Shown: positions 4,178 to 42,670, numbered from the stretch's first letter. The stretch is DNA of 50,278 nt from an uncultured virus (IMG/VR IMGVR_UViG_3300033233_000003) (IMGVR_UViG_3300033233_000003), one strand, 5' to 3'. A program made the numbers and translations. The notes: generated by a model from the sequence alone, not told the origin.

Positions 4178-6139
4178 ATGATGCCAGATCAACTCTTCCC
4201 CTTCGCGTGGGCGGCCGACGGCGCGCTCTCGCCCGCGTACGGCTACCAGCCTCCACCTGGATCTCCTGGCTATCAGCCGCCGCCCGGATCGGGCGCGCCC
4301 GGAGGCCCCGGAGGGCTCGGAGCCGGACCCGGATCGCCCGATCCTGGGGGTGCGCCACCGAGCGGCCCTTCGCCCGAAACGCCATCGCCGGAGCCTCCGC
4401 CTCCGGAACCGGAACCTCCTCCCGCGGAGACGGAGCCCGTCTACGATGCGACCTCTGTGACCGGCACGGTGGATCAACCCGACTCCGGCTACACGCCGAA
4501 GAGCGGCGACCTGCATATGTCTGCGCTCGGCGGCGGCAACCTCATGTATCCGAGGACCAGCGGCCGCGGAGCGGACCGCGTCGAGACAGCCGGCGCAGTC
4601 GTGGCCGGCGATTGGTCTCCAGAAGATTTCGCGGTGCCGGCCCACGCGGTCGAGGGCGGACGCGCCGCGGTCGCGGCGCTGCTCGGCACCGGCACCGCGC
4701 GCCCATCGACAGCCTCGTCCGAGCGAGATCAACAGTTCAAGGCCGTCTACACGGTCGATCGCGGCGTGGCCAGGCGCCACGTGTTCTCGATGCCGCATCC
4801 GATGACGCTCGGTGTCCTCCGGACCTCCGAGAGCCTCTGCGTCATGCGCGTCCTCGCCGACGGCGTCGTGCTCTGGAACGCGGACAATTACTCTGCGCCC
4901 GGATGCCCACACGATCTCCTGCCGGGCAAGTCTCCTCTGCGCGTCAAACATGACGTGACCATCGAGTTCGTCCACAACGATGAGCGTCACGTCGAATCCG
5001 AGACCGGATGGATCGTCCTCCACATGAAGGAAGAACCTTTCGTTGCACAGCTCGCGCCGCGGCAAACATCCAGCACCGACCTCGCCGTCGCAATTCCGAA
5101 ACAAGGCCGCTCCGCGCCGGCCGCGTCGCAGTCGCGCTTCCAGATGGCGAACGTGCACGGCGGCATAGAGACGGCGGCGATGCTCGGCACTACGAAGGCG
5201 AGTCCGCACGACCGACCGTTCTCGATCGACTCCACGGGACCGAACCCGGTCTTCACTTTCCGCCCATTTCCGGAGGACGGAGATTGGAAGGGCGGACACG
5301 TCGTCGCCGACGTACCTCTGACGAAGGAGGCTTTCCCGGGCATGGTGCTCCGCCCGCTCCGTCTCAAAAAGCTCGTGGCCGCTCCGGGCGTCTTGATCAG
5401 GTCGGCCGCGATCTTGGTCAAAGGAGTTCAGATCAAGGGACCGGAATACGACTTCTACATGGGCGACGGCTTCACGCACGTCGACTTCGATCTCTTTCCC
5501 GAGAAGCGTCTCATCTGGCCGGTCGGCGCGACGTTGCAGATCTGGGTTCAACTCTACGACTACGATCGGGTCGTGGAAGGCGGTCACGGCCCGTGGGTCC
5601 GAGTCTTCACCGCTGAAGTTCCCGCCTCAGGCATGGTTTTAGCGAGCCCTCCACAACATCCATCACGGTCGCCAGTTCCAGGCTCCATGCAGGGCCGCTC
5701 TGTCCCGCCCCTGCTCCAGCCGATCTCGATGCCGCTCTCCGCGCCGCACGTGCCCTCACAGGCGTCGAAGCCCCTCGTCACGTCCGCGCCACACACGCCT
5801 CTCGTCCAACCCAACCCGTATGCCGCGACCGTCGAGGCCTGCCGCAAGTGGGGCTACGAGCGAGGCCGCGACGATCGCAAGAAGGGTCACCCCTTCGATC
5901 GCGACGCCGTGAGCCACTACGGCACCGCGGGCATCGCGGGCGCTGCGCTGCAGCCGTGCGTCAACGCCATCATGGCCGCCTACAACGAGGGCTGGTCGAG
6001 CACGGGGCCGACGGCAGCGCCGATCTCCGCGGCGACGAGCGTCTCCGGTCATCTCGACGAGTACGCGGCGCATCCGTTCCATCGTCCCGACGATGCGCTC
6101 GTGGCCCTCATGAGCTATCTTCCTGGTCGTCGCTACTGA
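4178..6139 (+). CDS. large Pro-rich protein with two beta-rich domains
   Basis: ORF 4067..6139, likely start ATG 4178 after the stop at 4133. Confidence 0.75.
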   Translation: MMPDQLFPFAWAADGALSPAYGYQPPPGSPGYQPPPGSGAPGGPGGLGAGPGSPDPGGAPPSGPSPETPSPEPPPPEPEPPPAETEPVYDATSVTGTVDQPDSGYTPKSGDLHMSALGGGNLMYPRTSGRGADRVETAGAVVAGDWSPEDFAVPAHAVEGGRAAVAALLGTGTARPSTASSERDQQFKAVYTVDRGVARRHVFSMPHPMTLGVLRTSESLCVMRVLADGVVLWNADNYSAPGCPHDLLPGKSPLRVKHDVTIEFVHNDERHVESETGWIVLHMKEEPFVAQLAPRQTSSTDLAVAIPKQGRSAPAASQSRFQMANVHGGIETAAMLGTTKASPHDRPFSIDSTGPNPVFTFRPFPEDGDWKGGHVVADVPLTKEAFPGMVLRPLRLKKLVAAPGVLIRSAAILVKGVQIKGPEYDFYMGDGFTHVDFDLFPEKRLIWPVGATLQIWVQLYDYDRVVEGGHGPWVRVFTAEVPASGMVLASPPQHPSRSPVPGSMQGRSVPPLLQPISMPLSAPHVPSQASKPLVTSAPHTPLVQPNPYAATVEACRKWGYERGRDDRKKGHPFDRDAVSHYGTAGIAGAALQPCVNAIMAAYNEGWSSTGPTAAPISAATSVSGHLDEYAAHPFHRPDDALVALMSYLPGRRY

Positions 6140-6211
6140 TCCTTCGCATCGAACTTCTCTTCCAAGACCAGCAAAATTTCTGACATCGTCGCATGTCAGG
6201 GCAGGGCAAAA

Positions 6212-7108
6212 ATGGCCATCCCCATCCTTCCGATCCTCGCCGCCGGCGGCGCGCTCATCTTCCTGCTCGGCAAGGGCGGAGCCAAGAAGGCGGCGGTCAC
6301 GCCGATCATCACCAAGCCGCCGACGCCTCCCTACACGACGCCTCCCTACACGCCGCCGACGCCCTACGGACCTCCCGCGATCCCGCCGACGCCGTGGACG
6401 CCGCCTGTGATCCCACCGATCGCGGCACCTCCTCCCGTTCCGGAGATCCCGCCCGGCTGGATGACGCCGCCTCCCGGATGGACGACGCCGCCGGCAGGCT
6501 GGACGCCTCCCGCAGGTTGGACCGTGCCGCCGTGGGTCACGGCCGAAGCCAAGAGCAAGGAGCCCGGCGTGGTCGCCGACGAGTTCAAGCTCGGCTACAA
6601 CGACGGCTTCAAGGACGCAGCCTACAGCTCCGACTTCGGCACGAGCGCCGACAAGGCGAAGTACGCAAGCTCGCTCTCCTACAAGAACGGCTACGACGCA
6701 GGCTGGAAGGAGTACAGCAAGTCGGTCACCTCGGCCGGAGTCAGAGGACGAACGCGCGCCGGCCTCGACGTGATGAGCTTCGAGGACCCGAGGTTCATGA
6801 TGTACGTGAGGCCGCGCGTCGGCATCACGGCGATTGAACGCCCGGCCGACATCAGGGGCTTCAATCACATCCACGCCTCCCATCCGGCCGCCCGGCGCGC
6901 GGAGCTGCGTCGCTCAGTCGGCCGCACGCGCGTGAACACCGCCGTCTCCGGAGCAGCGGCCGCAGGATGCTGTCCAAGCCAAGGCAACCCATCAGGGTGT
7001 CAGTGTCCCGCGTGCGCGGGTCCAGGCCAGTACCTCGACGCGTACGGCAACCGGATCGATCAGACCGAGATGCTGCGGATGCTGCAGTACGCGGGCTGGA
7101 GGTACTGA
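6212..7108 (+). CDS. N-terminally anchored Pro-rich membrane protein
   Basis: MAIPILPILAAGGALIFLLGK anchor; PPGWT repeats; GYNDG/GYDAG. Confidence 0.8.
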   Translation: MAIPILPILAAGGALIFLLGKGGAKKAAVTPIITKPPTPPYTTPPYTPPTPYGPPAIPPTPWTPPVIPPIAAPPPVPEIPPGWMTPPPGWTTPPAGWTPPAGWTVPPWVTAEAKSKEPGVVADEFKLGYNDGFKDAAYSSDFGTSADKAKYASSLSYKNGYDAGWKEYSKSVTSAGVRGRTRAGLDVMSFEDPRFMMYVRPRVGITAIERPADIRGFNHIHASHPAARRAELRRSVGRTRVNTAVSGAAAAGCCPSQGNPSGCQCPACAGPGQYLDAYGNRIDQTEMLRMLQYAGWRY

Positions 7109-7117
7109 TTCACTGAG

Positions 7118-9227: not shown

Positions 9228-9284
9228 GAGAAACGAAGAACCAGCGGCGTCAGAGGCGACCGCGTCGAAAGAAAGGACGAAGAC

Positions 9285-9536
9285 ATGCTACCGCTACTCA
9301 TCGGAGCCGGCATCCTCGTGGCGGTGCTCGCGCTCAAGGGCTCGTCAGGGGGCGGAGGCAACACTCGGTGCGGCGACACCATGAGCGTCAGCGCCGCCGA
9401 GATCTTCGACAAGGGCATGTCCTTGCCACACCCGGATGGAGACGACATCCCGAAGGCGAAGATCATCGTCGCGACCTTCGACGCACAGGGCTACCACAAG
9501 GCGGCGAACTGCCTCCGCGTCCACTTCGGACTCTGA
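9285..9536 (+). CDS. small anchored protein with helical module
   Basis: MLPLLIGAGILVAVLAL; IFDKGM...FDAQGYHKAANCLR. Confidence 0.8.
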   Translation: MLPLLIGAGILVAVLALKGSSGGGGNTRCGDTMSVSAAEIFDKGMSLPHPDGDDIPKAKIIVATFDAQGYHKAANCLRVHFGL

Positions 9537-9846: not shown

Positions 9847-9993
9847 ATGAGACCGAACGCACTCAACCGAACGAGAGTCGATCGCGGTCACGCGAGAGTC
9901 GGAGCGACCGGCGGAGAAGGCGTCAACGCCGGCTTCGTCTTCCTGACGCTCGGCGCCGTCCTCTTCGGTGCCTGGTACATAGGGCACCTCTGA
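9847..9993 (+). CDS. 48-aa membrane protein (not in the ORF track)
   Basis: MRPNALNRTRVDRGHARVGATGGEGVNAGFVFLTLGAVLFGAWYIGHL; TGATG overlap with the next gene. Confidence 0.72.
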   Translation: MRPNALNRTRVDRGHARVGATGGEGVNAGFVFLTLGAVLFGAWYIGHL

Positions 9994-10199
9994 TGCGACC
10001 GAACGCTCTCACCAGGACACGTGGGACACGAACCAGCGGTGCCGAAGGCAACCGCGTCTGGACCGGCGCCGTCGAATCGAAGCCCCTCTCCGAGGAGGAG
10101 AAGTCGAGCTTCGACTCGGCGGCCCAGGGCGCCTCGGTCGGCATCCTCGCCGGCGCGGCGCTCCTGGTCCTGGGCGTGCTGTGGATGAAAGACGCCTGA
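9993..10199 (+). CDS. small membrane protein, paralog of 9847..9993
   Basis: MRPNALTRTR N-terminus; C-terminal hydrophobic helix. Confidence 0.75.
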   Translation: MRPNALTRTRGTRTSGAEGNRVWTGAVESKPLSEEEKSSFDSAAQGASVGILAGAALLVLGVLWMKDA

Positions 10200-13418: not shown

Positions 13419-13994
13419 ATGGCCAAGCTAGACATCTCCCGCATCACCGACAAGCACTACCAGGGCGGCCATCCCGTCGCCGGCAGCGCTCTCTACGACG
13501 CGGGCTTCCGCGTGCTCGTGCTCTGCGCCCTGCCCGACGAGTACGAGCTGCAGTACAAGCTCTCGTGGCACGGCCTCTCCTACGACCGCCCCAGCGGCGC
13601 CGCAGGCGACCGCGTTGGAATCGAGGGGATGTTTCCTGGCCTGAAGATCATCCGCGCACCGAATGACGACGACTACGATCGTCCGATGAGCCTGCCCGAG
13701 ATCCAGATCGCCTGCGGCGCCGCCAAGATCGTGTCGCGCATGACGATCAGGGGCAGGCGCACGCTCGTCGCCTGCGCGAAGGGCAGAAATCGCAGCGGGC
13801 TCGTCAGCGCGCTCGCGCTCTGCGAGCGGTATGGCTGCGGAGGTCTCGCTGCAGTCGCCGAGGTGCGCGCGCGTCGCCAGCCCGACTGCGGCGGCGTGGT
13901 CCTTCAGAACCCGCAGTTCGTGCGAGCGCTCGCGGGGATCCGAAGCAGCAGATCGTCGAGCCGATGGGATCGAGAGATGGAGTCACATCCGTGA
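13419..13994 (+). CDS. dual-specificity/tyrosine protein phosphatase family
   Basis: CX5R loop LVACAKGRNRSGL, upstream PNDD acid loop, QNPQF. Confidence 0.85.
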   Translation: MAKLDISRITDKHYQGGHPVAGSALYDAGFRVLVLCALPDEYELQYKLSWHGLSYDRPSGAAGDRVGIEGMFPGLKIIRAPNDDDYDRPMSLPEIQIACGAAKIVSRMTIRGRRTLVACAKGRNRSGLVSALALCERYGCGGLAAVAEVRARRQPDCGGVVLQNPQFVRALAGIRSSRSSSRWDREMESHP

Positions 13995-15436
13995 ACGTGC
14001 TCACCAGGACGAGGATGGCGGCTCCGAAGGAGACTGCGTGGGGGCGACCTCGCGAAGAGCCGCGACATGCGGCTCTCACGCGTGTCGGAAAGCTCAGCGG
14101 CGACAGCACGTTCATCGGACTCACCTACGAGGGCGCGAATCCTTTCCCAGAGGAGAAGTTCCTCGATCCGTGGTGGCCCCTCGATGCGGGCCTGACCTGG
14201 CCACAGATCAACGATTATCGCGACATCGCTGGAAACGAGAGCGCGACGCCGAACAACGCCGCCGCGCGCATCGCGAAGATCTCCAGCGGCATCGCCGGCG
14301 CGACCGAGGCGCCTCCGCTCGATCTGAAGAACTTGTCCACGCGGCTCGTTGCCTACGCGGCGGACATGCGCAGCAAGTACGCCGAGCATGCGGGACAGAC
14401 GCTCAAGGAGAGCGCGCAGTACAAAGGCCTCAAGGCCGCCGGCGCCCTGATCGTCAGCTACATCACCACGCCGGCCGGCGGCGTCGTATTCAGCAAATGG
14501 CTTGAGTGGTCAGTGGATTTGGGAGAGGACATCCTCAAGGGGCTCAACGCGCTCGGATGGAAGGTCGGGCCGCAGAAGGACATCGAGGCGGCCGAGGCGA
14601 ATCTGGACGCGATGAAGGATTGCTTCACGGCAAACCTCAAGTTGGCCGTGCCGCCGGCTTGGCAGACCCTCGGCTTGCCTGTCATCGTCGGAAGCGACAA
14701 CGCGAGCACCCCCTACATCAAAGACGCCGTCTGCTACAACTTCTACAAGTGGGAGCACATGCCGCGCGTCGATCGAGACGTCGTCGTGCAATGGTGGGCG
14801 CTCTACTTGATGCAGGCCGACGATCCGGAGATCGCTACCGCGTTCGCGGGGCTTTGGAATTCGAGCGCGCTCGCGGACGACACGCAGGTCCTGCTCGTCG
14901 CGATGCCGATCGCGAAGGCCGCCGGAATCCCATGGAAGTCATTTGCTGAGCAGCTGTGGGCGCGCTCGGCCGGCTATCGCGGCAGACCCGATCTGCTCCT
15001 CGGCTGGGACGGCGGAAGCTTGATTCCGATGGCCGCAGGCCTGACCCCGGCGAACGCCTCGAACGTGCAATGGCAAGTGCTCGCATCCGACGCATTCAAG
15101 TTGGCCGAAGAGATCAAAGGCAAAGACACCCTGGCGCTCACCCTGGCGCTCACCGGACCAATTTCCGGCAGCAAGCCGAGCGACAGGCCGACCTCGAAGC
15201 CGAGCGGCGAACCCGTCAACGGCAAACGTTCCGGCACCATTCCGGGTCGCTCTGGGAGCATTCCAGGCCGGTCCCCCGGTGCGCCGCGCTACGGCACGCC
15301 GATGGCGAGCTGGTCCGGTGGCCCACAGACGCCTTCCGGCATCAGCGACAAGACGAAGGGCGGCATCGGCGCCGTCGCCATCATCGGCGGCATCATCCTG
15401 GGCGGCATCATGCTGCTTCGAGGAGGCCACGCGTGA
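13991..15436 (+). CDS. C-terminally anchored hypothetical protein
   Basis: GTGA overlap start MNVLTRTR; C-terminal IGAVAIIGGIILGGIMLL. Confidence 0.8.
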   Translation: MNVLTRTRMAAPKETAWGRPREEPRHAALTRVGKLSGDSTFIGLTYEGANPFPEEKFLDPWWPLDAGLTWPQINDYRDIAGNESATPNNAAARIAKISSGIAGATEAPPLDLKNLSTRLVAYAADMRSKYAEHAGQTLKESAQYKGLKAAGALIVSYITTPAGGVVFSKWLEWSVDLGEDILKGLNALGWKVGPQKDIEAAEANLDAMKDCFTANLKLAVPPAWQTLGLPVIVGSDNASTPYIKDAVCYNFYKWEHMPRVDRDVVVQWWALYLMQADDPEIATAFAGLWNSSALADDTQVLLVAMPIAKAAGIPWKSFAEQLWARSAGYRGRPDLLLGWDGGSLIPMAAGLTPANASNVQWQVLASDAFKLAEEIKGKDTLALTLALTGPISGSKPSDRPTSKPSGEPVNGKRSGTIPGRSGSIPGRSPGAPRYGTPMASWSGGPQTPSGISDKTKGGIGAVAIIGGIILGGIMLLRGGHA

Positions 15437-20149: not shown

Positions 20150-20442
20150 CCACGGTGCCGCGTGACTGCGGACGATGCGGCGACGTGTTCTTCGGCTACA
20201 TCGTAGACGACAGGACATGGGCGAAGCTGCCGCCGCGATGGCGGCCTTTCGAGCTGTGCGTGCATTGCTTTCGCGAGATCTGCGAGCACCCGCGCAGTTC
20301 TGGATCGCCTCGTCCGTACGCGGTCGTCTGGCTCCGCCACGACTCTGTTTCCACGCGGTCCGCTTCGCGGCCGCCTGGTGCGCCGATCGAGGGGCCGAGG
20401 AAGCTCACGTCGATCCTCATCGCTCACGACTTCCGTCGCTGA
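20053..20442 (+). CDS. small Zn-finger protein (start uncertain)
   Basis: CGRC...YIVDDRTW...LCVHC in the frame of 19813..20442. Confidence 0.55.
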   Translation: MVVEERRGRLRRSGSWSYDPALVAEEDPFRYVTTVPRDCGRCGDVFFGYIVDDRTWAKLPPRWRPFELCVHCFREICEHPRSSGSPRPYAVVWLRHDSVSTRSASRPPGAPIEGPRKLTSILIAHDFRR

Positions 20443-20662: not shown

Positions 20663-21224
20663 CACAGCTCCGGCATGAAGCCCTTCGGCCAGGGCGACTC
20701 TTGCTGCTCGTGCCGCAGCGCGGAGAGCAGGCACGCCGCTTCTTCTTTCGTGGCGCCGGATTCGTGCATGGCGGCATGCACGGCGAGGTAGAGCACGTCT
20801 CCGCTCACTTCTTTGACGAGGCAGCGAACGAACGCGACGAGGAAATCGTGATCAACTTCTCCTTCTCGTTCCGATACTCCTCGCGCTCGGCCTCCGTCAT
20901 GCTCCGGAAGCGCTCCTCTCGCAGGCTGTTGAAGAGCGGCATGCAGCACCCTGCCCCCACGGACAATTGCCGTCGTAGATCTTCTCGCGCTTCCCCCTCC
21001 GCCTTCAGGATCTCTCCGCACCAGTACCTCCCTTCCTTCCAAACGAGCGATGGACATTCAGCTCCCGGACCGTGAACCATCACGCCGATGGAGCATCGAG
21101 CCTTCAGACAACAGAGCCCGCTGCCGACGCAGGGCTTCGCGTCGATGGCCCAATCCTCATCGTTCGGCATTCTTGTCACCCGTTCTTCCGGATGAAGTCT
21201 CGCGTGACTCGGCTCGCTGCTCAT
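20662..21224 (-). pseudogene. Cys-rich phage protein apparently split by a 1-nt frameshift near 20856
   Basis: N-part PCVGSGLCC...CPSL.W...RYWC...GAGCC; a protein-like continuation DHDFLVAFVRCL...GFMPEL in another frame ends in a TGATG overlap with the RHH gene. Confidence 0.5.
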
Positions 21225-22561
21225 CACGCGCTCTCCTTGGTTGATTCCACTTCCAACTCCACAGCCTTGCAGCGGTTGATCATCGTCTGCTTCTGTCCCT
21301 TGTACTCGTCGTGCTTCTTCACAAAGCCCGTCAGCTCGAAGCGCTTGCCCACGTCGGCCCGCGCGAGTTCGGTCGAGCTGGCCTTCCACACGATCGTCTC
21401 GCCCGCATCTGTAAGGAACTTCAGCACCGTCGTGTAGCCGTAGGTGCCCTCGTAGCCAGTCACGAAGTCGAGGGTCACGACGAAGGTCTGGCGCTTGCCG
21501 ACGACGCCCACGTGCGCGTTGTTGTTCGGGCGCGCAGCGCGCTCGGCCCGCTTGCGCTCGTCGCCGAGATAGCGCTGGTAGGCGGTGACCATGCTCGCCG
21601 CGATTCCGCAGGTGCGCGAGGTCACGAGGCCCGTGCGCGCGACCGCACGAAGGTTGTGGAGGTAGTCGCTCCTTCGACCGCGGTCGCCTTCGGCGCCGCT
21701 AGGGGCGCCGTCAACGGTCGCATCGGTCAGCGACTCGGCCCACACTTCGGCGGCGGCAGCGAGCGCCATGTCTTCGATCGAGGGCTCACACTTGGCCTTC
21801 TCCTTGGAGCGCGAATCCGTCATGAGGGTCCACGCGTGGTCGGCCGAGGCCATCCCGCCCTTGTCGCGAGCGATGGTGCGCGAGACCCAGCCGAGCGTGC
21901 GCACTTCCCACGCCACGAACCCGAGGTACTCGGCGAGCATGTGCGAGCCCGAACCACCGCCGCCTCCGAAGCCCTCCTCGCAGCCGCCCTCGGCGAGCCC
22001 TGCGGCGTCGGCGAGCAGACACGCGCGATCGGCCATCTTGCCGGCGGCGTCGGAGCCGAGGAAGTCCTCGATGCAGGTCGAGCCGACCTGGACGAACTTG
22101 CCGTCCTCCACGCGGTCGCCTGCGGCGCCGCTGGGCTCGTGGATCAGGACGTAGGTGTCGTTGCGGCGGCGATTCTGCTTGCAGTGGTCGCAGGCCGGAC
22201 CGCGCGTGCGGTAGATCGCGGGAAGCTCGATCTCGCCGACGGTCCGGATGATGTTCTCTCCGTCCAAGTGTTGAAGCGCCGCGACGAAGGTCCAGCCCGC
22301 GAACTTGGGAGCGTCGGCCGGCAGAGTCAGCGGAATTCGCACGACCGTGTACGAGGTCTCCACGCCGCCTTCAGAAGTACGCTTGAAGCTCTGCGAGGAC
22401 GCCTTGCCCCAGGTCCAGACGAGCGCCGGCAGGCCCTTGCGCGCGGCACGCTTCTGAAGGGCCACGAGGCCAGCCTCGACGCTGTCCTTGCGCGAGAGCA
22501 GCACGTCGAAAACGCAGATCTCGGCGACGGGAAGGGCTTCGGCGGCGGTCATCTCGGTCAT
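21224..22561 (-). CDS. phage protein with Zn-binding motif and C-terminal OB-fold-like domain
   Basis: CDHC...RRRNDTY...QVGSTC; HVGVVGKR...VWKAS...GFVKKHDEYKGQKQT. Confidence 0.8.
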   Translation of the reverse strand: MTEMTAAEALPVAEICVFDVLLSRKDSVEAGLVALQKRAARKGLPALVWTWGKASSQSFKRTSEGGVETSYTVVRIPLTLPADAPKFAGWTFVAALQHLDGENIIRTVGEIELPAIYRTRGPACDHCKQNRRRNDTYVLIHEPSGAAGDRVEDGKFVQVGSTCIEDFLGSDAAGKMADRACLLADAAGLAEGGCEEGFGGGGGSGSHMLAEYLGFVAWEVRTLGWVSRTIARDKGGMASADHAWTLMTDSRSKEKAKCEPSIEDMALAAAAEVWAESLTDATVDGAPSGAEGDRGRRSDYLHNLRAVARTGLVTSRTCGIAASMVTAYQRYLGDERKRAERAARPNNNAHVGVVGKRQTFVVTLDFVTGYEGTYGYTTVLKFLTDAGETIVWKASSTELARADVGKRFELTGFVKKHDEYKGQKQTMINRCKAVELEVESTKESA

Positions 22562-25407: not shown

Positions 25408-25875
25408 ATGCATACCTGCTACGACGACATCCTGAGCCGCGTCACAAGCGATCCCAAGTGGTTCGACGAGCACGCCGTCCCTCGCTACTGCGATTTCTCA
25501 CCCGACGAGTGCGCGGACATCTACGCCAGACAAGCGTGCCTCTTGCTCATCGAGTGTCAGAACTGCGCGCGACCCTTCGAGGTCGCCCTCTCGTGGTCCG
25601 ACTACAGCCCGAAGAACGCGCTCGACGGTCTCGTCCGACGGCAGGAGATCCATTTCGGCGATCCGCCGAACGTCGAGTGCTGCTCCAGCGGCCCGAGCAT
25701 GAACAGCGTGCCGAAACGCGTGCTGCAGTTTTGGCGAAGGAACCCGCCGCCCCGAGATCTGGAAGTGGCATGGATCCGCGACGCGACACTGGAAATCGAG
25801 ATCAACCCATCGTGGATGAAGAATCGCACAAGCGGTGTCGACGGCGACCGCGATGGAGAGGGCGACGACTCATGA
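25408..25875 (+). CDS. Cys-rich hypothetical phage protein
   Basis: WFDEHAVPRY...CQNC...HFGDPPN..CC. Confidence 0.75.
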   Translation: MHTCYDDILSRVTSDPKWFDEHAVPRYCDFSPDECADIYARQACLLLIECQNCARPFEVALSWSDYSPKNALDGLVRRQEIHFGDPPNVECCSSGPSMNSVPKRVLQFWRRNPPPRDLEVAWIRDATLEIEINPSWMKNRTSGVDGDRDGEGDDS

Positions 25876-28456: not shown

Positions 28457-28795
28457 ATGACCAGAGTGCCCAACGTCTTCGTCATCGTCGACCGAGAGGA
28501 CGGTCGCCCCTACGTCAAGAGGGGCTGGCGTCTGCGCGTGCAGGCCGAGGCCGAGCTTGCCGGCCTGCTCCGGTTCTTCCCGGAAGATCACGAGTGGCGG
28601 AGACGCCTCTACGTGGCCGAGGCGAGCCCTTCCATCTTCAGCGACGTGGAGGGCAGAACCTCTCGTCCCATCACCAAGCGAGACGCGCTACGCTCCATCC
28701 AGAACGCGGTCGCCCCTGGCGCCGCTCAGCAGGAAGCTCATCCGGAGGACCAAGAGGCGTCTCCGATCACTCTTCCCTCGGAGAACAAGTCGTGA
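28457..28795 (+). CDS. hypothetical protein
   Basis: 112 aa in operon order. Confidence 0.6.
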   Translation: MTRVPNVFVIVDREDGRPYVKRGWRLRVQAEAELAGLLRFFPEDHEWRRRLYVAEASPSIFSDVEGRTSRPITKRDALRSIQNAVAPGAAQQEAHPEDQEASPITLPSENKS

Positions 28796-29271
28796 AGTTC
28801 GAGACCATCGACGCCTGCATCTGGGGCCTGACCAGCCCGCACGGCGACGTGCCAATCTGCGCAGACGCCGATCGCGAGGTCGTGGTCCCCGCCTGGGCCA
28901 AAGATCTCGTGCGCAAGATCTACAAGGAGGTCCTGCCGAGTCGAAAAATCCCGCAGCTGAAGTTCGTGGAGGCAAAGGACCCGAGATCCTTCGGCGGACT
29001 GTGGCTGCCTGATCAAGACAGCCTGGGAGGGGGGGATGGACGCGGACGCATCGCAGTGTTCGCACATCCGGATCACGACTACGCGAAGGGCGTGCTCATC
29101 CACGAGTGCTGCCACGATCTCTGTCAGGAGTTTCTCGGCGACGACGTGGGCCACCATGACGTAGACTTCCTGCGTCTGGTCGAAGTGCTCTACATCGACT
29201 GCAAGATTCCCGCGCACGTGGCGCGAAAGATCGAGGCGAAGAGTCCGTCCACCAAAAGCTGGAGCTGGTGA
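28792..29271 (+). CDS. SprT-like HExxH zinc metallopeptidase
   Basis: VLIHECCH...GHHDVDF. Confidence 0.65.
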   Translation: MKFETIDACIWGLTSPHGDVPICADADREVVVPAWAKDLVRKIYKEVLPSRKIPQLKFVEAKDPRSFGGLWLPDQDSLGGGDGRGRIAVFAHPDHDYAKGVLIHECCHDLCQEFLGDDVGHHDVDFLRLVEVLYIDCKIPAHVARKIEAKSPSTKSWSW

Positions 29272-29585
29272 TGATCACGCGCGAGCTTCCGCCTACGACA
29301 CACGTCAGGGTTCTCTCGTCCGCCATCGACGCGGGACTCGAACGCGCGTTCGTCGGCGCTACCGGCGTCATCCAGCGAAACCTGCCCACACTCAAGCCAG
29401 CGAAACCACCCTATGACTGGATCGTGGAGACACTGTGCATCGTCGACCTCGATCGTCATCAACGTGCGGAGGACGGAATGATGGTCACACAATTGTGGCT
29501 CGCGCCTCGGGACCTCGAAGCCGTGAATCCGCGAGACCTGGAGCCCAGCGGCGCCGCAGGTGACCGCGTTGGAACGGTGACATGA
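29268..29585 (+). CDS. hypothetical protein
   Basis: Coupled overlap with both neighbours. Confidence 0.6.
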   Translation: MMITRELPPTTHVRVLSSAIDAGLERAFVGATGVIQRNLPTLKPAKPPYDWIVETLCIVDLDRHQRAEDGMMVTQLWLAPRDLEAVNPRDLEPSGAAGDRVGTVT

Positions 29586-31679: not shown

Positions 31680-32615
31680 ATGGGCGCTGCGGCCGATGCG
31701 GTGAAACGAATCGGCGAGAAGGCCGAGAAGACTTCAGAGAAGTCCAACGGAAAGGGCGCCGAAGCCACGACTTTCCTGCCCGTCGGCAAGGGCAGGATCG
31801 AGATCATCAAGCTCGACGACATCGAGGTCGACGCGAAGTTCAACGCGCGGGGCCCGATCGACGTGCGTGAAAAGGACTTCCTGTTGTTCGTGAGCGACAT
31901 CAAGGAGCGGGGACTCCTGGAGAACCTCGAAGTCCGCACGCTGGAGAAGCCGACCAAATCCGGCAAACGATACAGTCTGGTGGCAGGATTCGTGCGGCAT
32001 TGCGCGTGCAAGCTCGCGGGCCTCACCGAGGTTCACTGCCTCGTCAAGGACATCAGCGAGTGCGACGCGATGCTCGACAACCTCGCCGAGAACGAGCATC
32101 GATGGAAGCTCCGCGCCTACGAGCTTGCCTGTCGCTGTGCGCTGCTCAAGAAGGATTACGACCTGACGGGCGATCAGATCGGACACAAGCTCCACAAGAG
32201 CAAGGGTCACGTCAACAACTTGATCCGCTGCATCGAGAGGCTGCCCGCGCCGATCCTCGACGCGTTCAAGCGCCACGACGACGCGGCGAGCACGATGGAC
32301 TACATCAGGCTCTCCTCGCTCGACTCCAAGGAAGAGATGATGACGGCCTGGCGACAGATGTTCGGCAAGTCCGCCGGCGAACCGGGCGTCCCCTTGGAGA
32401 AGTCCGCGCGCGGCGACAAGCCACTTCGCGTCAAGTCCCGCGACAAGATCCGGATCCTGATCCACGACCTGCGCCGCGCCGACGACATCTTCCTGGAGAG
32501 CGACTGGGCGAGCCTCACCGACAGAGATCGCGAGGTCGCTCGCCAAGTCTGCCGATGGATCATCGGCGAGGTACAGCGCTACCCCGTGAAGCTCCCGCCG
32601 GAGGACGCCGGATGA
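31680..32615 (+). CDS. parB: ParB/Spo0J-family protein with HTH
   Basis: FNAR...IKERGLLENLEV...YSLVAGFVRH...NLAENEHR...LTGDQIGHKLHKSKGHVNNL. Confidence 0.85.
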   Translation: MGAAADAVKRIGEKAEKTSEKSNGKGAEATTFLPVGKGRIEIIKLDDIEVDAKFNARGPIDVREKDFLLFVSDIKERGLLENLEVRTLEKPTKSGKRYSLVAGFVRHCACKLAGLTEVHCLVKDISECDAMLDNLAENEHRWKLRAYELACRCALLKKDYDLTGDQIGHKLHKSKGHVNNLIRCIERLPAPILDAFKRHDDAASTMDYIRLSSLDSKEEMMTAWRQMFGKSAGEPGVPLEKSARGDKPLRVKSRDKIRILIHDLRRADDIFLESDWASLTDRDREVARQVCRWIIGEVQRYPVKLPPEDAG

Positions 32616-33818: not shown

Positions 33819-34601
33819 GTGAAACCTCTTCGGCACGAGTTCACCGCGACGGGCAAGACCGAGCGGTGCGGTCGCTGCGGCGTCGAGCGCAGCCGCAGCA
33901 AGGGCCTGCCGGAGTACCGCCTGCCAAGCGGTGCCGAAGGCGACCGCGTTCTGAAAAAGGGCACGTGGTCCTACCAGGATCCGGGCTGCCGCGACCCGCG
34001 GCAGTCCGACCTCTTCGCATCCGACCTCTCGCTGCCGGAGGGGTTCGCGCCCGTCGAGAAGACGCCGCCCGCGGAAGCGATCGTGGCGACGATCGAGCTG
34101 ACGCCGAACGAGAAGCTCGCGAAGATCTTCGCCAAGTCACATGTGAACATGGAGGAAGACGATCAACCAGTAGCGATCGACGAAATGCTCTCCATCTTCA
34201 CGGGCTCGAAGATCGTCCGCGAGGGTGACCCGGAATTCATGCACGCGGAGAGTCAACACCATGCGTCCATCGAACATGGACATCCGCATCCCCATGCGAT
34301 CATCTCGCTCGCGCTCGACCCCGAGGGAAGGCACCTCGGCATCTACGAACGCTGGCACGTCTTTGCCCTCTCTCCGAGACCGCTGGCGAAGGGCCTGGAG
34401 CAGATCGTAGAGGGCACGCTCGGCGACGCGCTGCAGAAGACCGAGTGGATGAAGAAGGCGCTCGTCTTTCGACCGGAAGCCATCCTCGTCGTGGACGGGC
34501 CGCGCAAACGCATCGAGCTGAGACAGCATTCGGCGAGCAAGAAGACGAAAGCCTTCTGGTCGATCGCGGAGACGGTCAAGATGGAGGTGGACGCGACATG
34601 A
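33819..34601 (+). CDS. hypothetical protein
   Basis: 260 aa; N-terminal H...CGRC. Confidence 0.7.
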   Translation: MKPLRHEFTATGKTERCGRCGVERSRSKGLPEYRLPSGAEGDRVLKKGTWSYQDPGCRDPRQSDLFASDLSLPEGFAPVEKTPPAEAIVATIELTPNEKLAKIFAKSHVNMEEDDQPVAIDEMLSIFTGSKIVREGDPEFMHAESQHHASIEHGHPHPHAIISLALDPEGRHLGIYERWHVFALSPRPLAKGLEQIVEGTLGDALQKTEWMKKALVFRPEAILVVDGPRKRIELRQHSASKKTKAFWSIAETVKMEVDAT

Positions 34602-37792: not shown

Positions 37793-38028
37793 GCGAGCAC
37801 TGCGATCGATGCGGAGAGCCCACGATGCCCGGCAGCGCGCTCTGCCGCGCCTGCATCGAGCAGGATCAATGGCGTTCCAGACATCCACCCGAAAAGCAAC
37901 CCGAGCCATGCGACAGCTGTTTCGGAAACGGAGAAGGCCCATTCGACGACTGCCCCGAGTGCGCTGGAAGCGGCATGAAGCATCTGTTCACCACGCGGTC
38001 GCCTTCGGCGCCGCTGGGCAAAAGCTGA
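37789..38028 (+). CDS. Zn-finger protein (CxxCxGxG repeats)
   Basis: CDRC, CRAC, CDSCFGNG, CPECAGSG. Confidence 0.65.
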   Translation: MSEHCDRCGEPTMPGSALCRACIEQDQWRSRHPPEKQPEPCDSCFGNGEGPFDDCPECAGSGMKHLFTTRSPSAPLGKS

Positions 38029-38032
38029 CACC

Positions 38033-38851
38033 ATGCCGCGGCTGCACGTCCTTTCAGACCTTCATTTCGAGTTCATGGCTGACGCCGGCCGCAGCTTCGT
38101 CGAGAGCCTGCCGTCCGCCGAGGAGACAGGCGCTGACGCGCTCGTCGTCGCGGGCGACCTCTGTCCGGTGCCCGGCATGTACGGCGTCTTCGCCAAGAGA
38201 TCCCTGCCCGACGCGCTCGGACTCCTCTGCGACAAGTACCCGCTCGTGATCTTCGTTTCTGGCAACCACGAGTTCTACGGCTCGACCAAGCCGGCGCTCG
38301 ACGAGTGGCGCGTGAAGATCCTCACGAGCCCACGCTGCCGGAACCTCCGCTGGCTCGATCACGAGATCTGCACTGTCGGTGATGTACGCGTCCTCGGCAC
38401 GCCGCTGTGGTTTCACAAAAACAACCACGCACCGAAGCACCAGATGAATGACTTCAGCGTCATCTCCGACTTCGAGGAGTGGGTCTACGAGGAGAACGAG
38501 CAGGCCGAGAACTTCCTGCGCGCCGAGCTGCACGAGGGCGACGTGCTCCTCACACATTACCTCCCGAGCCAAGAGTCCGTCGCGCCGCAGTTTGCGGGCT
38601 CGCCGCTCAACGCGTTCTTCGTCTGCGACATCGAGGACCTCATCGCCGTGCGCAAGCCGCAGCTCGCCATCCACGGACACACCCACACGTCTATGCGATA
38701 CTCGCTCGGAGCGCCGCGCGTCATCTGCAACCCGTTCGGCTACGCGGGACACGAGGTCAACCCGGAGTTCGACCCCGGGCTCGTCGTCGAGATCACTCCA
38801 AACGCGGCCGCCTTCGGCGCCGCTGGTTCAAAGAGCATCCCGCTCCCGTAG
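38033..38851 (+). CDS. calcineurin-like metallophosphoesterase
   Basis: SDLH, AGDL, GNHE, THY, HGHTH, NPFGY. Confidence 0.93.
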   Translation: MPRLHVLSDLHFEFMADAGRSFVESLPSAEETGADALVVAGDLCPVPGMYGVFAKRSLPDALGLLCDKYPLVIFVSGNHEFYGSTKPALDEWRVKILTSPRCRNLRWLDHEICTVGDVRVLGTPLWFHKNNHAPKHQMNDFSVISDFEEWVYEENEQAENFLRAELHEGDVLLTHYLPSQESVAPQFAGSPLNAFFVCDIEDLIAVRKPQLAIHGHTHTSMRYSLGAPRVICNPFGYAGHEVNPEFDPGLVVEITPNAAAFGAAGSKSIPLP

Positions 38852-39431: not shown

Positions 39432-39446
39432 CGCATATTTCAATTC

Positions 39447-40115: not shown

Positions 40116-40453
40116 ACGGGAATCCGCCGTGGCTTGCTGATGCCGCCGAGGCCCTCGGCGAATGTCGCCCTGAGGATGGCGCTCCGCTCGCGCTCAACTG
40201 GACGCATGTAATCGCTGCCATCAACGAGCTTCGCGAGGACCGCGACCACTGGAAGAAGCGCGCCGAGTCGGCCGAGTACGCGCTCGGCCCCTATCTGTGC
40301 CCGAAGTGCCGGAAATGCCTCTCGCCGCAGGAGCTCGACCACACCATGTGCCGCGCGTGCGCCGAGAAGGACATGGCCAAGCGACTCGGCGCCGGTCTCC
40401 TCGATCTGCCGTCTGACTGGTACGACCACACGCCGGATCGGGGGCCGCAGTGA
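40112..40453 (+). CDS. Zn-finger hypothetical protein
   Basis: CPKC...CRAC. Confidence 0.6.
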   Translation: MNGNPPWLADAAEALGECRPEDGAPLALNWTHVIAAINELREDRDHWKKRAESAEYALGPYLCPKCRKCLSPQELDHTMCRACAEKDMAKRLGAGLLDLPSDWYDHTPDRGPQ

Positions 40454-40647
40454 ACAAGCACCCCGCGAACAACGGCAAGGTCATGCTGTCGATCTGGGTC
40501 GAGGCGCCGCTGCGAGACTACGTGCGAGCCCGCGCGATGGAGGCGAAGCAGTCAGTCAGTGAGTGGGCCGGAAACGCGCTCATGGTGGCCGTGCTGAATA
40601 CGTCACTCGGTGCGTTCTGCTTTCCGCCGAAGGAGCCGAAGCCATGA
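40450..40647 (+). CDS. small RHH/CopG-like DNA-binding protein
   Basis: VMLSIWV...LRDYVRARA...SVSEW. Confidence 0.55.
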   Translation: MNKHPANNGKVMLSIWVEAPLRDYVRARAMEAKQSVSEWAGNALMVAVLNTSLGAFCFPPKEPKP

Positions 40648-41117
40648 ACCCGAAGGTCATCCACGCACAACGGGCCTGCGAAGCCGCCAAAGCCCGGCAA
40701 GCCGTCGTCGTGTTCCTCGACGAGGTAGGCCAGTACGCCGTTGCCAGCTACGGCGAGACGAAGGCCGAGTGCGCTGCCGTCAAGCCGCTCTGCAACGCCA
40801 TTGCCGATGCGCTCGATGAGGGCGAGCTGCCGATGCCTGGTGGGGGTTCGCGATTAGGCGGCGAGCGCAAAAGCGAGCGGCAACGCGAGTTCGATTCACT
40901 CGTCGCAGAGCGCGACAAGTACCACACTCAATCGCAGGACTTGGAAAAGAAGCTCGCCGCCATCGCCACACTGGTCTCGATCTACGACAACCAGGACGAG
41001 CCCGAGGGACAGGTGTCAGCCCGCCGTGCGCTCACGGCCATCGGCGAGACCATCGGCGACTCGTGCTCGGTCTGCCGCAGCAGGCACGGCTCAGAGGTGC
41101 GTCATGCGTGCGAATAG
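40644..41117 (+). CDS. hypothetical phage protein
   Basis: AAGGAG RBS; ASYGETKAEC. Confidence 0.7.
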   Translation: MNPKVIHAQRACEAAKARQAVVVFLDEVGQYAVASYGETKAECAAVKPLCNAIADALDEGELPMPGGGSRLGGERKSERQREFDSLVAERDKYHTQSQDLEKKLAAIATLVSIYDNQDEPEGQVSARRALTAIGETIGDSCSVCRSRHGSEVRHACE

Positions 41118-41153
41118 AGAGCGGGGAGAACATGGGACTGAGAACGCTGGTTC

Positions 41154-41549
41154 GTGCAGCGGACCCGAATGGGGACGTGCGAGAGCATCGATCGAAATCC
41201 GCTCATGGAGGGCGACGAATGGTCGAAGACGGCGAACCACTGGCGTTGCAAGATCGTCGCCCGAGCCGGCGGCAAGAAGCGCACGCTCAGCACCTACTTC
41301 TCGAAGGGCTCTGGCCACCACGGCGCCGAGCCGAGGATCACGGAGGTCTTCTCGGCACTGTCGCTCGATGCCATGGGCTTCGAGAACGCGAAGGACTTCG
41401 ACGACTGGGCGAGCGAATACGGCTACAGCACCGACTCGCGGAAGGCCGAGCACGCCTACAGGGCCGTCGGCAAGCAGGCCGCTTCCCTCAAGCAGCTGCT
41501 CGGCGAGGCCGCCTTCGACGAACTCCTCTACAAGACCGAGAGCGACTAG
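41154..41549 (+). CDS. hypothetical phage protein (true start may be ATG 41132 with a frameshift)
   Basis: FDDWASEYGYSTDSRKAE motif; the best RBS precedes the out-of-frame ATG at 41132. Confidence 0.7.
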   Translation: MQRTRMGTCESIDRNPLMEGDEWSKTANHWRCKIVARAGGKKRTLSTYFSKGSGHHGAEPRITEVFSALSLDAMGFENAKDFDDWASEYGYSTDSRKAEHAYRAVGKQAASLKQLLGEAAFDELLYKTESD

Positions 41550-41563
41550 GAGCAATCCGCATC

Positions 41564-41969
41564 ATGCCCATCCCCACCCAGGCCGAGTACGAGCGCAACG
41601 AACGCCAGCTCTTCCTCGCGAACCTCCGCGAGGTCGACGCCGACTGGAAGAAGCTCTCCCTCGCCGAGCGCCGCGCCGAGGAGCAGAAGTTCTACGAGGC
41701 CATGGCGCACGATCCGGGCCTCGTCGCCGAGCGCATCGACTGGATCCTCGACGGCTCCTAACGGCAAGGGCGCCTACGACGCAGCTCACGAGGTTCTCAC
41801 CAACACGCGCATGAATCGCGAGGCCTGGCTCACGCACACCGTCGCCGCCGCCGAGTGGCAGATTCCCCAGAGCGCTGCGATCCGAGCCTGGAAGAGGCTC
41901 ACGACGGGCCAGCAGAAGTCGCTCGATCTGCACGTTCGACGCGCCATGAAGGCCGTCTCCGAAAGGTGA
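41564..41969 (+). pseudogene. hypothetical protein interrupted by a 1-nt insertion at about 41760
   Basis: MPIPTQAEYE...WILDGS stop; removing one A in TCCTAACGGC gives GSYGKGAY...KAVSER with a stop at 41969. Confidence 0.6.
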
Positions 41970-42064
41970 TCACAAGCAGCTTGTTCCGCACAACCTCACC
42001 GTGCTACGGTCCTCTCTCCACTCTCGTTGCGGCTTGACCGCAGCCACCCCGGGGAGCATCCAAG

Positions 42065-42670
42065 ATGACCGAGCAGGAAAGCGGCGCCGAGGCGCGTCAG
42101 CAGGAGCCCACGTCGCAGCCGACGCCGCAGAACGGCACAGGCCCCCAGGCTCCGCAGGTCACACCGGGCAGACCGAAAGTCAAGCCGAGCGGCACCGAAG
42201 GTGTCCGCGCTGGGACGGAGGCCTCCGACAAGCCCACGCCCACGCCCACGCCCGCCAGCGTCGCGTCCACGCCCACCCCCGCCGCAGCGCCTCGCCCCGT
42301 CCGGCGCACCGCGCTCGTCCGGTGCAAGGGCGTCCTCTGCGTCCCAGGCAAGAAGGAGATCGTCACCTTCAACATGGGTCGCGAGTTCCATCCCGAACGC
42401 ATCGTGCTCCACCACCTCTGCGTCCGAGGCCTCCTCATCGAGGACATCCGCGTCCGCAAGGAGGGCTCGACCGACCTCGGCGTGAGCAAGCTCGACGGCG
42501 AAGGCGAACTCATCGGCGAGGCCTTCATCGCCTCCATCGCTGAGAACCACACGCCGGACCTCGGCATGATCGAGAAGAACGGCGCGGTCGACCTGCACGT
42601 GAAGAACGTCGCCCCCAACCCCGTCATGGTCCACGGCCACATCCTCGGCTTCGTTTATGCCGTGCCCTGA
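42065..42670 (+). CDS. Pro-rich N-terminus plus C-terminal beta-sandwich domain
   Basis: GGGGAG RBS; FHPERIVL...IEDIRV...VDLHVKN...VHGHILG. Confidence 0.75.
   Translation: MTEQESGAEARQQEPTSQPTPQNGTGPQAPQVTPGRPKVKPSGTEGVRAGTEASDKPTPTPTPASVASTPTPAAAPRPVRRTALVRCKGVLCVPGKKEIVTFNMGREFHPERIVLHHLCVRGLLIEDIRVRKEGSTDLGVSKLDGEGELIGEAFIASIAENHTPDLGMIEKNGAVDLHVKNVAPNPVMVHGHILGFVYAVP

What the first reader, a model, noticed from the sequence alone, without database searches (positions are those of the whole stretch)
4557..42213. Dispersed bulged GNA-loop hairpin with compensatory changes, embedded in genes on both strands
Seen: about 15 clear and 4 degenerate copies of GCGG-[4 bp]-3-nt loop-[4 bp]-bulge-CCGC-G(T). 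The inner stem changes sequence but keeps pairing: CGCC/GGCG (13591, 21676, 22108, 28703, 37991, 38801), TGCC/GGCA (10033), CTCC/GGAG (14015), CACC/GGTG (42186), CCGC/GCGG (4557, 20351), plus G-T variants. Loops are mostly GAA, GCA or GGA and the bulge is usually A. Orientation is independent of gene direction, and the motif is read in different frames (PSGAAGDRV, TRSPSAPLG, NAAAFGAAG, MAAPKETAW), so selection is on the nucleic acid. Mean spacing is about 2 kb, and I saw none in the glycosylation cluster. Known: d(C-GNA-G) mini-hairpins are very stable in ssDNA; GNA-loop hairpins act as N4 virion RNAP promoters, and other DNA hairpins act as priming signals and HUH/RAYT substrates. Inference: an undescribed ssDNA or cruciform signal system for priming, packaging, transcription or micro-mobility.
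Basis: partly seen in the sequence, partly recalled or inferred. Interest (0 to 1): 0.92.

Follow-up and report, generated by a model that had tools for sequence, protein, structure and literature searches.

The report
Mobile hairpin mini-insert in phage genes
A 30-base palindromic DNA unit has copied itself into many genes of a large phage, each time adding ten harmless amino acids, and a sister version is a dispersed repeat in soil bacterial chromosomes.

Summary
A covariance model finds 17 copies in the window at 31.7 bits or more; the next hit scores 13.2. The strict descriptor gives 14 fully paired copies against 0.22 in dinucleotide shuffles.

The unit is about 30 nt: CCCA, GCGG, four variable paired bases, a GNA loop, the pairing bases, a bulged A, CCGC, then GTTGGA.

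It is not a fixed signal. In the phrog_2319 protein, both copies are exact 10-residue inserts. Site 2 is filled in 1 of 120 homologues and site 1 in 3 of 120. Two close relatives carry the same peptide at other sites. Orientation is random along the genome.

Thirteen of 14 intragenic copies begin at a codon boundary, in both orientations.

A sister family with a GTCCAGGA tail lies mostly between genes, sometimes in tandem, on about 70% GC bacterial contigs. IMG/VR holds no carrier.

Best reading: a REP-like, RPE-like mobile palindrome tolerated in frame. The mobilising enzyme is unknown, and the GTAG hallmark of RAYT-type REPs is absent.

The parts
2081..2110 (-). 30-nt unit; outer stem GCGA/TCGC, loop GTA, bulge T; antisense in gene 1904-2320, codon phase 0 (PYANAYGVAG)
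4556..4585 (+). 30-nt unit; inner stem CCGC/GCGG, loop GGA; sense in gene 4160-6139, phase 0 (TSGRGADRVE)
   Evidence: the homologue alignment is ambiguous
9240..9269 (+). 30-nt unit; CGTC/GGCG with one T-G pair, loop AGA; intergenic, 16 nt upstream of the start at 9285
10032..10061 (+). 30-nt unit; TGCC/GGCA, loop GAA; sense in the weakly called ORF 9993-10199, phase 0 (TSGAEGNRVW)
13590..13619 (+). 30-nt unit; CGCC/GGCG, loop GCA; sense in gene 13419-13994, phase 0 (PSGAAGDRVG)
14014..14043 (+). Degenerate unit; CTCC/GGAG, outer stem 3' arm CTGC; sense in gene 13991-15436; the only copy in the other benign frame (MAAPKETAW)
20349..20378 (-). 30-nt unit; CCGC/GCGG, loop GAA; in a non-coding spacer between convergent genes
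21674..21703 (-). 30-nt unit; sense in gene 21224-22561(-); equals the 10-residue insert PSGAEGDRGR, present in 1 of 120 homologues
22106..22135 (-). 30-nt unit; sense in gene 21224-22561(-); equals the 10-residue insert PSGAAGDRVE, absent from the 84% identical P0002
23430..23459 (-). 30-nt unit with one C-A mismatch (CGTC/GACA), loop GAG; antisense in the SNF2 helicase gene, phase 0 (LNAVVLDAAR)
25828..25857 (+). 30-nt unit; TGTC/GGCG with two T-G pairs, loop GAC; sense in gene 25408-25875, phase 0, just past the end of the phrog_27600 match
28700..28729 (-). 30-nt unit; CGCC/GGCG, loop AGG; antisense in gene 28466-28795, phase 0 (QNAVAPGAAQ)
29544..29573 (+). 30-nt unit; CGCC/GGTG with one G-T pair, loop GCA; sense, phase 0, three codons before the stop of ORF 29268-29585, whose stop overlaps the next start (ATGA)
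33924..33953 (+). 30-nt unit; TGCC/GGCG, loop GAA; sense in gene 33819-34601, phase 0 (PSGAEGDRVL)
   Evidence: homologues too distant to test insertion
37989..38018 (-). 30-nt unit; CGCC/GGCG, loop GAA; in a spacer with no coding periodicity
38798..38827 (-). 30-nt unit, bulge G; antisense in the metallophosphoesterase gene, phase 0 (PNAAAFGAAG), after the end of the family match
42185..42214 (+). 30-nt unit; CACC/GGTG, loop GAA, bulge T; sense in gene 42065-42670, phase 0 (PSGTEGVRAG)
21224..22561 (-). phrog_2319-family gene (a homologue is annotated 'RecT-like' in one phage record); host of two units; its homologues give the filled-versus-empty comparison

Best explanation
The motif is a short, non-autonomous mobile palindrome of about 30 nt. 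Its parts are CCCA, GCGG, a 4-bp variable stem closed by C-G around a GNA loop, a bulged A, CCGC, and a tail GT(N)TGGA whose TGG often pairs with the leading CCA.

It has spread recently within one clade of large phages. A sister family is a dispersed, mostly intergenic and sometimes tandem repeat on chromosomes of about 70% GC soil bacteria.

Shown:
- Copies are gained, and possibly lost, as exact 10-codon blocks at different sites in closely related phages.
- The surviving copies are read in a frame that gives a small Gly/Ala/Ser/Pro-rich peptide.
- In the one protein modelled, the inserts lie in loops.

Inferred: the unit moves as a folded single strand. The C-GNA-G mini-hairpin and the bulge would mark the active strand. 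A structure-specific enzyme supplied in trans would move it, either from the host or from the roughly 125 kb of this genome not seen here. It needs no role in phage gene expression; it persists because in-frame copies cost little.
For: Real and non-random:
- 14 strict copies against 0.22 in shuffles.
- 17 copies separated by 18 bits from the background.
- In 10 high-GC bacterial genomes (about 70 Mb) the pattern GCGG-N4-GNA-N4-ACCGCGT matches 27 times. By my own count, it matches 8 times in this 50-kb window.

Structure:
- 98.5% of stem cells pair.
- 3 pairs show changes on both sides.
- 0 of 500 shuffles reach the observed score.
- DNA folds of -8.3 to -10.7 kcal/mol, with z-scores of -1.5 to -3.0.

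Insertion:
- In alignment A1, both copies in P0001 are 10-residue gaps in all 15 other sequences, except for a different insert in P0003 at site 1.
- Over 120 homologues, site 2 is filled in 1 and site 1 in 3.
- P0005 (71% identical) has PSGAEGSRVL at a third site.
- P0004 (75% identical) has SPAAPKATALE, the unit read in its other harmless frame, at a fourth site.
- The AlphaFold model puts both inserts in loops with pLDDT below 50 (residues 147-152 and 288-294).

No positional logic:
- Orientation is 9 plus and 8 minus in the window.
- Counting the L091 copy, there are 8 runs against 9.9 expected.
- 14 of 17 copies are intragenic.

Sister family:
- 23 distinct loci carry the GTCYNGG tail; 13 are clearly intergenic, and several of the other 10 lie near the ends of a called ORF.
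- Direct tandem arrays occur in L102 and L141.
- The contigs encode aconitase, AcrB, DisA and a sigma-54 activator.

Absent elsewhere:
- 13 flank-pattern hits in all of IMG/VR, 0 of them with a paired stem.
- 11 exact-hairpin hits there, each a single copy.
- 0 family-like copies in 70 loci of distant relatives.
Against: - No nucleotide-level pair of filled and empty sites was available, so the boundaries, any target duplication and the direction of change (gain or loss) rest on protein alignments of one gene family.
- Two other host genes gave no clean 10-residue gap. The 4160-6139 homologue differs by only 3 residues at the site. The SNF2 copy lies in a variable lineage-specific region.
- No transposase or HUH enzyme was found in the window or in L091.
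- Laying the source run's contigs on 20 kb showed no 30-nt indel at any copy.
- The near-absence of decayed copies, the compensatory changes and a density more than 10 times that of the bacterial contigs could instead mean the hairpins are kept by selection for a phage function.
- The strong codon-phase bias (15 of 17, counting L091 and two relatives) is not explained by peptide tolerance alone.
- The copies used for the covariation count were partly chosen for pairing.
Confidence: 0.65

Rival explanations
1. Domesticated element. The units arrived by insertion but are now kept because they help the phage. They might recruit host proteins that bind REP-like hairpins, or act as recombination hot spots for the phage's own annealing protein and helicase.
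For: - Density is 17 copies in 42 kb, against 2-3 non-seed copies in about 94 kb of the bacterial contigs that carry the sister family.
- There is no tail of half-decayed copies.
- Stem changes are compensatory.
- In P0002 versus P0003, the switch from a divergent to an identical sequence lies at insertion site 1.
Against: - Copies are not conserved in position between 71-84% identical relatives.
- The lack of decayed copies also fits recent spread.
- No binding protein has been identified.
Confidence: 0.15
2. One reading: in-situ ssDNA or cruciform signals for priming, transcription (N4-like hairpin promoters) or packaging.
For: - The C-GNA-G triloop hairpin with a conserved bulge and flanks suits recognition as folded ssDNA.
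- An SSB gene lies in the window.
Against: - Both orientations occur although nearly all genes are on one strand.
- 14 of 17 copies lie inside genes at scattered positions.
- Orientation shows no switch point.
- Sites are not shared with close relatives.
- Loci of other phages carrying the proposed partner gene lack the motif.
Confidence: 0.1
3. Duplex palindromic binding sites for a phage DNA-binding protein, for example the ParB-like protein at 31680-32615 (parS-like sites).
For: - A ParB N-terminal domain protein is encoded in the window.
- parS-type sites are dispersed palindromes that may lie inside genes (my own knowledge).
Against: - The inner stem changes sequence while keeping complementarity, which a dimer reading bases would not require.
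- The bulge and the asymmetric loop break the dyad.
- Copies arise as 30-nt inserts.
Confidence: 0.05
4. RNA hairpins acting on mRNA stability, processing or translation.
For: - 10 of 14 intragenic copies are in the sense orientation.
- G-U-type pairs outnumber C-A mismatches on the motif strand, 6 to 2.
Against: - Four intragenic copies and one intergenic copy are antisense to the flanking genes.
- The 6:2 ratio is not significant.
- No Rfam family matches.
- Insertion polymorphism points to DNA.
Confidence: 0.03

Closest known systems
REP sequences / REPINs mobilised by RAYT (TnpA-REP) Y1 transposases
   Same: - Short, GC-rich, imperfect palindrome with a stem irregularity that could mark the active strand.
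- High copy number.
- The sister family is mostly extragenic on bacterial chromosomes.
- The hairpin is presumably recognised as ssDNA. The role of the bulge in E. coli REP is from passages of PMC8266576.
   Different: - No GTAG/GTGG tetranucleotide 5' of the hairpin; the 5' flank is CCCA, and a GTNG lies 3'.
- Bacterial clusters are direct tandems, not inverted pairs.
- The phage copies are mostly inside genes.
- No RAYT gene was seen.
- Bertels and Rainey state that RAYTs are absent from horizontally mobile agents (passages of 10.1101/2021.07.10.451892).
Rickettsia palindromic elements (RPE)
   Same: Palindromic repeats inserted in frame into many unrelated protein-coding genes, adding a peptide judged compatible with the fold (passages of the review PMC10969869).
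   Different: - RPEs are about 150 bp and occur in a bacterial chromosome.
- This unit is 30 nt, lies in a phage, is read in both orientations, and has a bacterial extragenic sister family.
Yeast mitochondrial GC clusters
   Same: Short GC-rich palindromic mobile units. In-frame insertion polymorphism occurs in a coding gene (var1). They have been suggested to be recombination hot spots (passages of PMC8811140).
   Different: - An organelle genome with an AT-rich background.
- Terminal AG/TAG repeats are read as target duplications; no such duplication could be shown here.
N4 virion RNA polymerase hairpin promoters
   Same: A small DNA hairpin with a 3-nt purine-rich loop, used as folded ssDNA (recalled, from no call).
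   Different: - Those are a few sites upstream of early genes in one orientation.
- Here there are 17 sites, both orientations, mostly intragenic, and not conserved in relatives.

Membership tests
REP / RAYT (REPtron) | Conserved GTAG (GT[AG]G) tetranucleotide immediately 5' of the palindrome on the active strand | tested here: not met
   Alignment A2: the 5' flank is CCCA, or CNAC on the other strand. A GT[TGC][GC] lies 3' of the hairpin instead. The feature is taken from passages of PMC8266576.
REP / RAYT (REPtron) | Imperfect palindrome forming a hairpin with a stem irregularity (group 2) | tested here: met
   8-bp stem with a 1-nt 3' bulge in 17 of 17 copies; 98.5% of cells paired.
REP / RAYT (REPtron) | Extragenic location at high copy number on a bacterial chromosome | tested here: inconclusive
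   Sister family: 13 of 23 loci are clearly intergenic, and several of the other 10 lie near the ends of a called ORF. Copy number per genome is unknown. No GTDB species genome holds more than one exact match. Phage copies: 14 of 17 are intragenic.
REP / RAYT (REPtron) | Inverted pairs (BIME/REPIN) | tested here: not met
   The clusters in L102 (3 copies) and L141 (2 copies) are direct tandems. There are no pairs in the window.
REP / RAYT (REPtron) | A cognate RAYT gene in the genome | not testable with these tools
   No Y1_Tnp hit among 68 window proteins or 12 L091 proteins. About 125 kb of the 188-kb contig was not available. The bacterial records could not be searched.
RPE-like in-frame palindromic elements | Insertion into unrelated protein-coding genes that preserves the reading frame | tested here: met
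   14 intragenic copies in 13 genes, none with a stop. Exact 10-residue inserts in P0001 (2) and P0005 (1).
RPE-like in-frame palindromic elements | Element length of about 100-150 bp encoding a conserved peptide | tested here: not met
   The unit is 30 nt (10 codons). The RPE length is from PMC10969869.
N4-type hairpin promoters | Placement upstream of transcription units, in one orientation relative to the genes | tested here: not met
   9 plus and 8 minus copies with genes nearly all on the plus strand; 14 of 17 are intragenic.
Yeast mitochondrial GC clusters | Terminal direct repeats read as target-site duplication | tested here: inconclusive
   Site 1 could be read as GAG...GAG; site 2 shows none. 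No empty-site DNA was available.

The most novel reading that the evidence does not exclude
This is a hairpin micro-transposon adapted to a coding-dense phage genome. It is a 30-nt unit that enters between codons in either orientation, so that it is always translated as a harmless ten-residue loop. It is mobilised on phage replication intermediates by an as yet unseen enzyme, and it is shared between the phage clade and the chromosome of its bacterial host. That would make it both a new class of phage-borne selfish DNA and a sequence marker linking uncultured phages to their hosts.
Probability: 0.25. Interest if true: 0.8.

Novelty: new variant of a known kind. Interest (0 to 1): 0.62.

Why it matters
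Short palindromic repeats of the REP type are treated as chromosomal, extragenic and vertically inherited. In-frame palindromic inserts are known from Rickettsia and from yeast mitochondria.

Here a 30-nt unit behaves like both, but inside a large phage, at roughly one copy per 2.5 kb. In one gene family there were four independent insertions among five close relatives.

If the reading holds:
- Phage proteins can gain loops from selfish hairpins.
- Comparing filled and empty sites gives a clean system for studying how such minimal elements move.
- A repeat family shared with bacterial chromosomes may help assign hosts to uncultured phages.

My four searches of the held paper library for REP-like or palindromic elements inserted in phage coding sequences listed no such report, judging from titles and abstract starts. 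(REPIN, RAYT, phage) also listed none. That library does not hold most subscription journals.

Tried and rejected
- Whole-genome search: no genome is held for this window.
- Megablast of 24 kb against known phages: no match.
- A 34-nt unit against known phages with blastn: only chance-level hits, E of 0.4 or more.
- Close relatives in IMG/VR by protein: none.
- A profile search gave 70 distant loci (47% identity or less) with no synteny beyond three genes, so no DNA-level empty sites were obtained.
- The look-up of sequencing runs listed only the probable source run. Laying its contigs at 80% likeness showed no 30-nt indel at any copy. The 'joints' between copies look like partial alignments of repeat-bearing contigs.
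- Homologues of 33819-34601 were too distant to use: 26% identity and no gap at the site.
- Taxon of the bacterial carriers: the protein-atlas look-up returned only generic aconitase clusters. Ten genomes reached through single genome-contig hits hold no family.
- A RAYT search in the bacterial records was not possible.
- Rfam: no family at the copies, at gathering threshold or at E up to 1.
- Earlier scan notes: nothing on record.
- Rejected: a protein-level repeat, because antisense and intergenic copies exist.
- Rejected: a CRISPR array, because there are no spacers and the tandem units abut.
- Rejected: terminators, because there is no T run and most copies are intragenic.


Full report
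**Context**

The window is 64-65% GC. Genes lie almost all on the plus strand, and few have family matches. The matches are an SNF2 helicase, an SSB, a ParB-like protein, a metallophosphoesterase, a phrog_2319 protein, and a sugar-modification cluster at 43.6-49.8 kb.

No whole genome is held for it. The protein search shows that its genes sit on a contig of 188,059 bp. Homologues of the phrog_2319 protein occur in 54 phage records, many of them 150-310 kb.

A JGI contig piece, L091, overlaps the window's end and continues the same genome for 13.4 kb. That piece carries a GH25 lysozyme and a tmRNA. I therefore treat the window as part of a large phage.

**Is the motif real?**

Yes.

- The strict descriptor (GCGG, four bases, three-base loop, four pairing bases, one bulged base, CCGC) has 14 fully paired sites. 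200 dinucleotide shuffles average 0.22, with a maximum of 2.
- Codon-order shuffles leave 4.17 and synonymous shuffles 4.5. Four of those are copies outside my gene calls, which these shuffles do not touch.
- A covariance model built from 17 aligned copies was run without filters on the window plus L091. It gives 17 window copies at 31.7-50.2 bits and one copy in L091. The next hit scores 13.2 bits.
Its outer stem has changed on both sides, to GCGA/TCGC.
- On the alignment, 98.5% of stem cells pair, three pairs carry changes on both sides, and no shuffle out of 500 reaches the observed score. The copies were partly chosen for pairing. A cleaner figure: of the 13 sites picked only by GCGG...ACCGCG, 12 have all four inner pairs.

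Outside controls agree.

- Ten high-GC bacterial genomes (about 70 Mb) hold 27 matches to GCGG-N4-GNA-N4-ACCGCGT. By my own count, the 50-kb window holds 8.
- All of IMG/VR has 13 matches to the flank pattern, none with a paired inner stem.

**Anatomy**

Its consensus is (C)CCA GCGG CGCC GAA GGCG A CCGC GT(T/G)GGA.

- Folding as DNA shows that the leading CCA often pairs with a TGG in the tail. The whole 30 nt is then one interrupted hairpin of -8.3 to -10.7 kcal/mol.
- The loop is GNA in 13 of 17 copies and the bulge is A in 14 of 17.
- The loop-closing C-G pair never varies.

**Fixed signal or insertion?**

The phrog_2319 gene (21224-22561, minus strand) holds two copies.

- In an alignment with 15 homologues, both copies are exact ten-residue inserts, PSGAAGDRVE and PSGAEGDRGR. 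Both are missing from the 84% identical P0002.
- Over 120 homologues, site 2 is filled only in the window's protein. Site 1 is filled in 3: the window's protein, P0003 with a different 11-residue insert, and P0068 in part.
- P0005 (71% identical) carries PSGAEGSRVL at a third site.
- P0004 (75% identical) carries SPAAPKATALE inside a C-terminal insert. That peptide is what the unit encodes in its other harmless frame.

So five close relatives show four insertions at four sites. An AlphaFold model of the window's protein (mean pLDDT 81) places both inserts in loops with pLDDT below 50. The gaps in the alignment would lower confidence there anyway.

Two further genes were uninformative.

- The 70% identical homologue of 4160-6139 differs by only three residues at the site. 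It reads TAGAAG-V, possibly a decayed copy.
- The SNF2 copy lies in a variable lineage-specific segment.

The source run's contigs showed no 30-nt indel at any copy.

**Frames**

I take the unit as 4 + 20 + 6 nt, boundaries that fit the ten-residue gaps.

- 13 of 14 intragenic window copies start exactly at a codon boundary. Nine are sense, including 29544-29573 in ORF 29268-29585, and four are antisense. The L091 copy does the same.
- Sense copies read P-S-G-A-E-G-D-R-V-G. Antisense copies read S/P-N-A-V-A-F-G-A-A-G.
- Only 14014-14043, and P0004's copy in a relative, use the other benign frame.
- The Arg-rich frame never occurs.

Loss of the Arg-rich frame is what selection on tolerated peptides predicts. 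The preference for one of two harmless frames, in both orientations, is not explained: 15 of 17, roughly p = 0.001 if the two were equal. I flag this as open.

**Position and orientation**

- Window copies are 9 plus and 8 minus. Counting L091, there are 8 runs against 9.9 expected.
- 10 intragenic copies are sense and 4 are antisense.
- 3 copies are intergenic.
- There is none in 42.3-50.3 kb, where GC drops to 0.59-0.60. About 3 would be expected at the density of the rest of the window.

This pattern does not suit promoters, priming sites tied to fork direction, or packaging signals.

**Relatives of the motif**

A scan of JGI metagenome contigs for the commonest hairpin variants gave 86 loci.

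- A large subset shares C(C/T)A-GCGGCGCCGAAGGCGACCGC-GTCCAGGA. Its GC is about 66-75%.
- Direct tandem arrays occur in L102 and L141.
- These contigs encode ordinary chromosomal genes: aconitase, an AcrB-type pump, DisA, a sigma-54 activator, and Ser/Thr kinases.
- Of 23 distinct loci, 13 are clearly intergenic. Several of the other 10 sit near the ends of a called ORF.

This is a REP-like family of bacteria, and the phage unit differs from it mainly in the tail.

The carriers are not named. The same pattern in one genome each of 185,579 species gave 39 single hits. Ten of those genomes, when checked, hold no family.

Density in the bacterial contigs beyond the seeding copy is low, 2-3 copies in about 94 kb. 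The phage has 17 copies in 42 kb.

No phage in IMG/VR carries the family, nor does any record in the cultured-phage collection.

**Comparison with known kinds**

- **REP/RAYT.** The unit works like a REP: a small GC-rich imperfect palindrome with a stem irregularity, dispersed at high copy number. It fails the RAYT-REP hallmark of a GTAG 5' of the hairpin (feature from passages of PMC8266576). Its clusters are direct rather than inverted. No RAYT gene was seen in 63.8 kb. RAYTs are reported absent from horizontally mobile agents (passages of 10.1101/2021.07.10.451892).
- **Rickettsia palindromic elements.** In its in-frame life inside genes, the unit works like these (passages of PMC10969869).
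- **Yeast mitochondrial GC clusters.** The same holds for the var1 insertions (passages of PMC8811140). The unit here is much shorter than an RPE and sits in a phage.
- **Rfam.** There is no match.

**Verdict**

The interpretation as a signal system for priming, packaging or transcription is not supported. The 'micro-mobility' option is supported.

The best-supported account is a 30-nt mobile palindrome that spreads within this phage clade and is tolerated as a ten-residue loop, related to a bacterial REP-like family.

- Shown: non-random copies, a conserved hairpin, and insertion polymorphism in one gene family.
- Inferred: movement as folded ssDNA, by an enzyme that has not been found.
- Open: the codon-boundary rule, the high density, and whether the copies now do anything for the phage.

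Noticed in passing
L091:8195-8509 (-), about 5 kb beyond the window's end in the same genome: A tmRNA gene (Rfam RF00023, 92 bits) is encoded by the phage. A GH25 lysozyme gene lies next to it at L091:8968-9822 (-).
   Followed up: no
L097, L103, L111, L119, L120, L122, L142, L154 (metagenome) and L202 (Xenococcaceae cyanobacterium MAG): Low-GC contigs (35-43%) carry a repeat with the same 20-mer hairpin, GCGGTGCCGAAGGCAACCGC, followed by GTAGCGGGTCGC. GTAG is the REP/RAYT hallmark, but here it lies 3' of the hairpin. L142 has two copies 433 bp apart.
   Followed up: no
window 22106-22135 (insertion site 1 of gene 21224-22561); proteins P0002 and P0003: P0002 and P0003 are 100% identical over the C-terminal roughly 280 residues but diverge in the N-terminal roughly 115. 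The switch lies at insertion site 1, where P0003 has an 11-residue insert, DGTGSDGLDRS. This may be a recombination junction at a decayed copy.
   Followed up: partly
window 23400-23700 within the SNF2 helicase gene 22710-25115: A roughly 90-residue Cys-rich lineage-specific insert sits between helicase motifs. Among the 12 aligned homologues, only P0123 and P0124 share it.
   Followed up: no
window 44000-48000: The sugar-modification cluster (RmlD-like, polysaccharide biosynthesis protein, methyltransferases, GT4 glycosyltransferase) has lower GC (0.59-0.60) than the rest of the window and holds no copy of the unit. This would fit recent acquisition.
   Followed up: partly
window 1904-2320 (+): The predicted protein ends in a Gly/His/Trp-rich low-complexity tail (GGGRGGWGGGGHWRGWGGHGHHGG...).
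   Followed up: no
window 21224-22561 (-): A homologue of this phrog_2319 protein is annotated 'RecT-like ssDNA annealing protein' in Tunturiibacter phage Tunturi_5 (308 kb). The family has an invariant CDHC...C motif.
   Followed up: no
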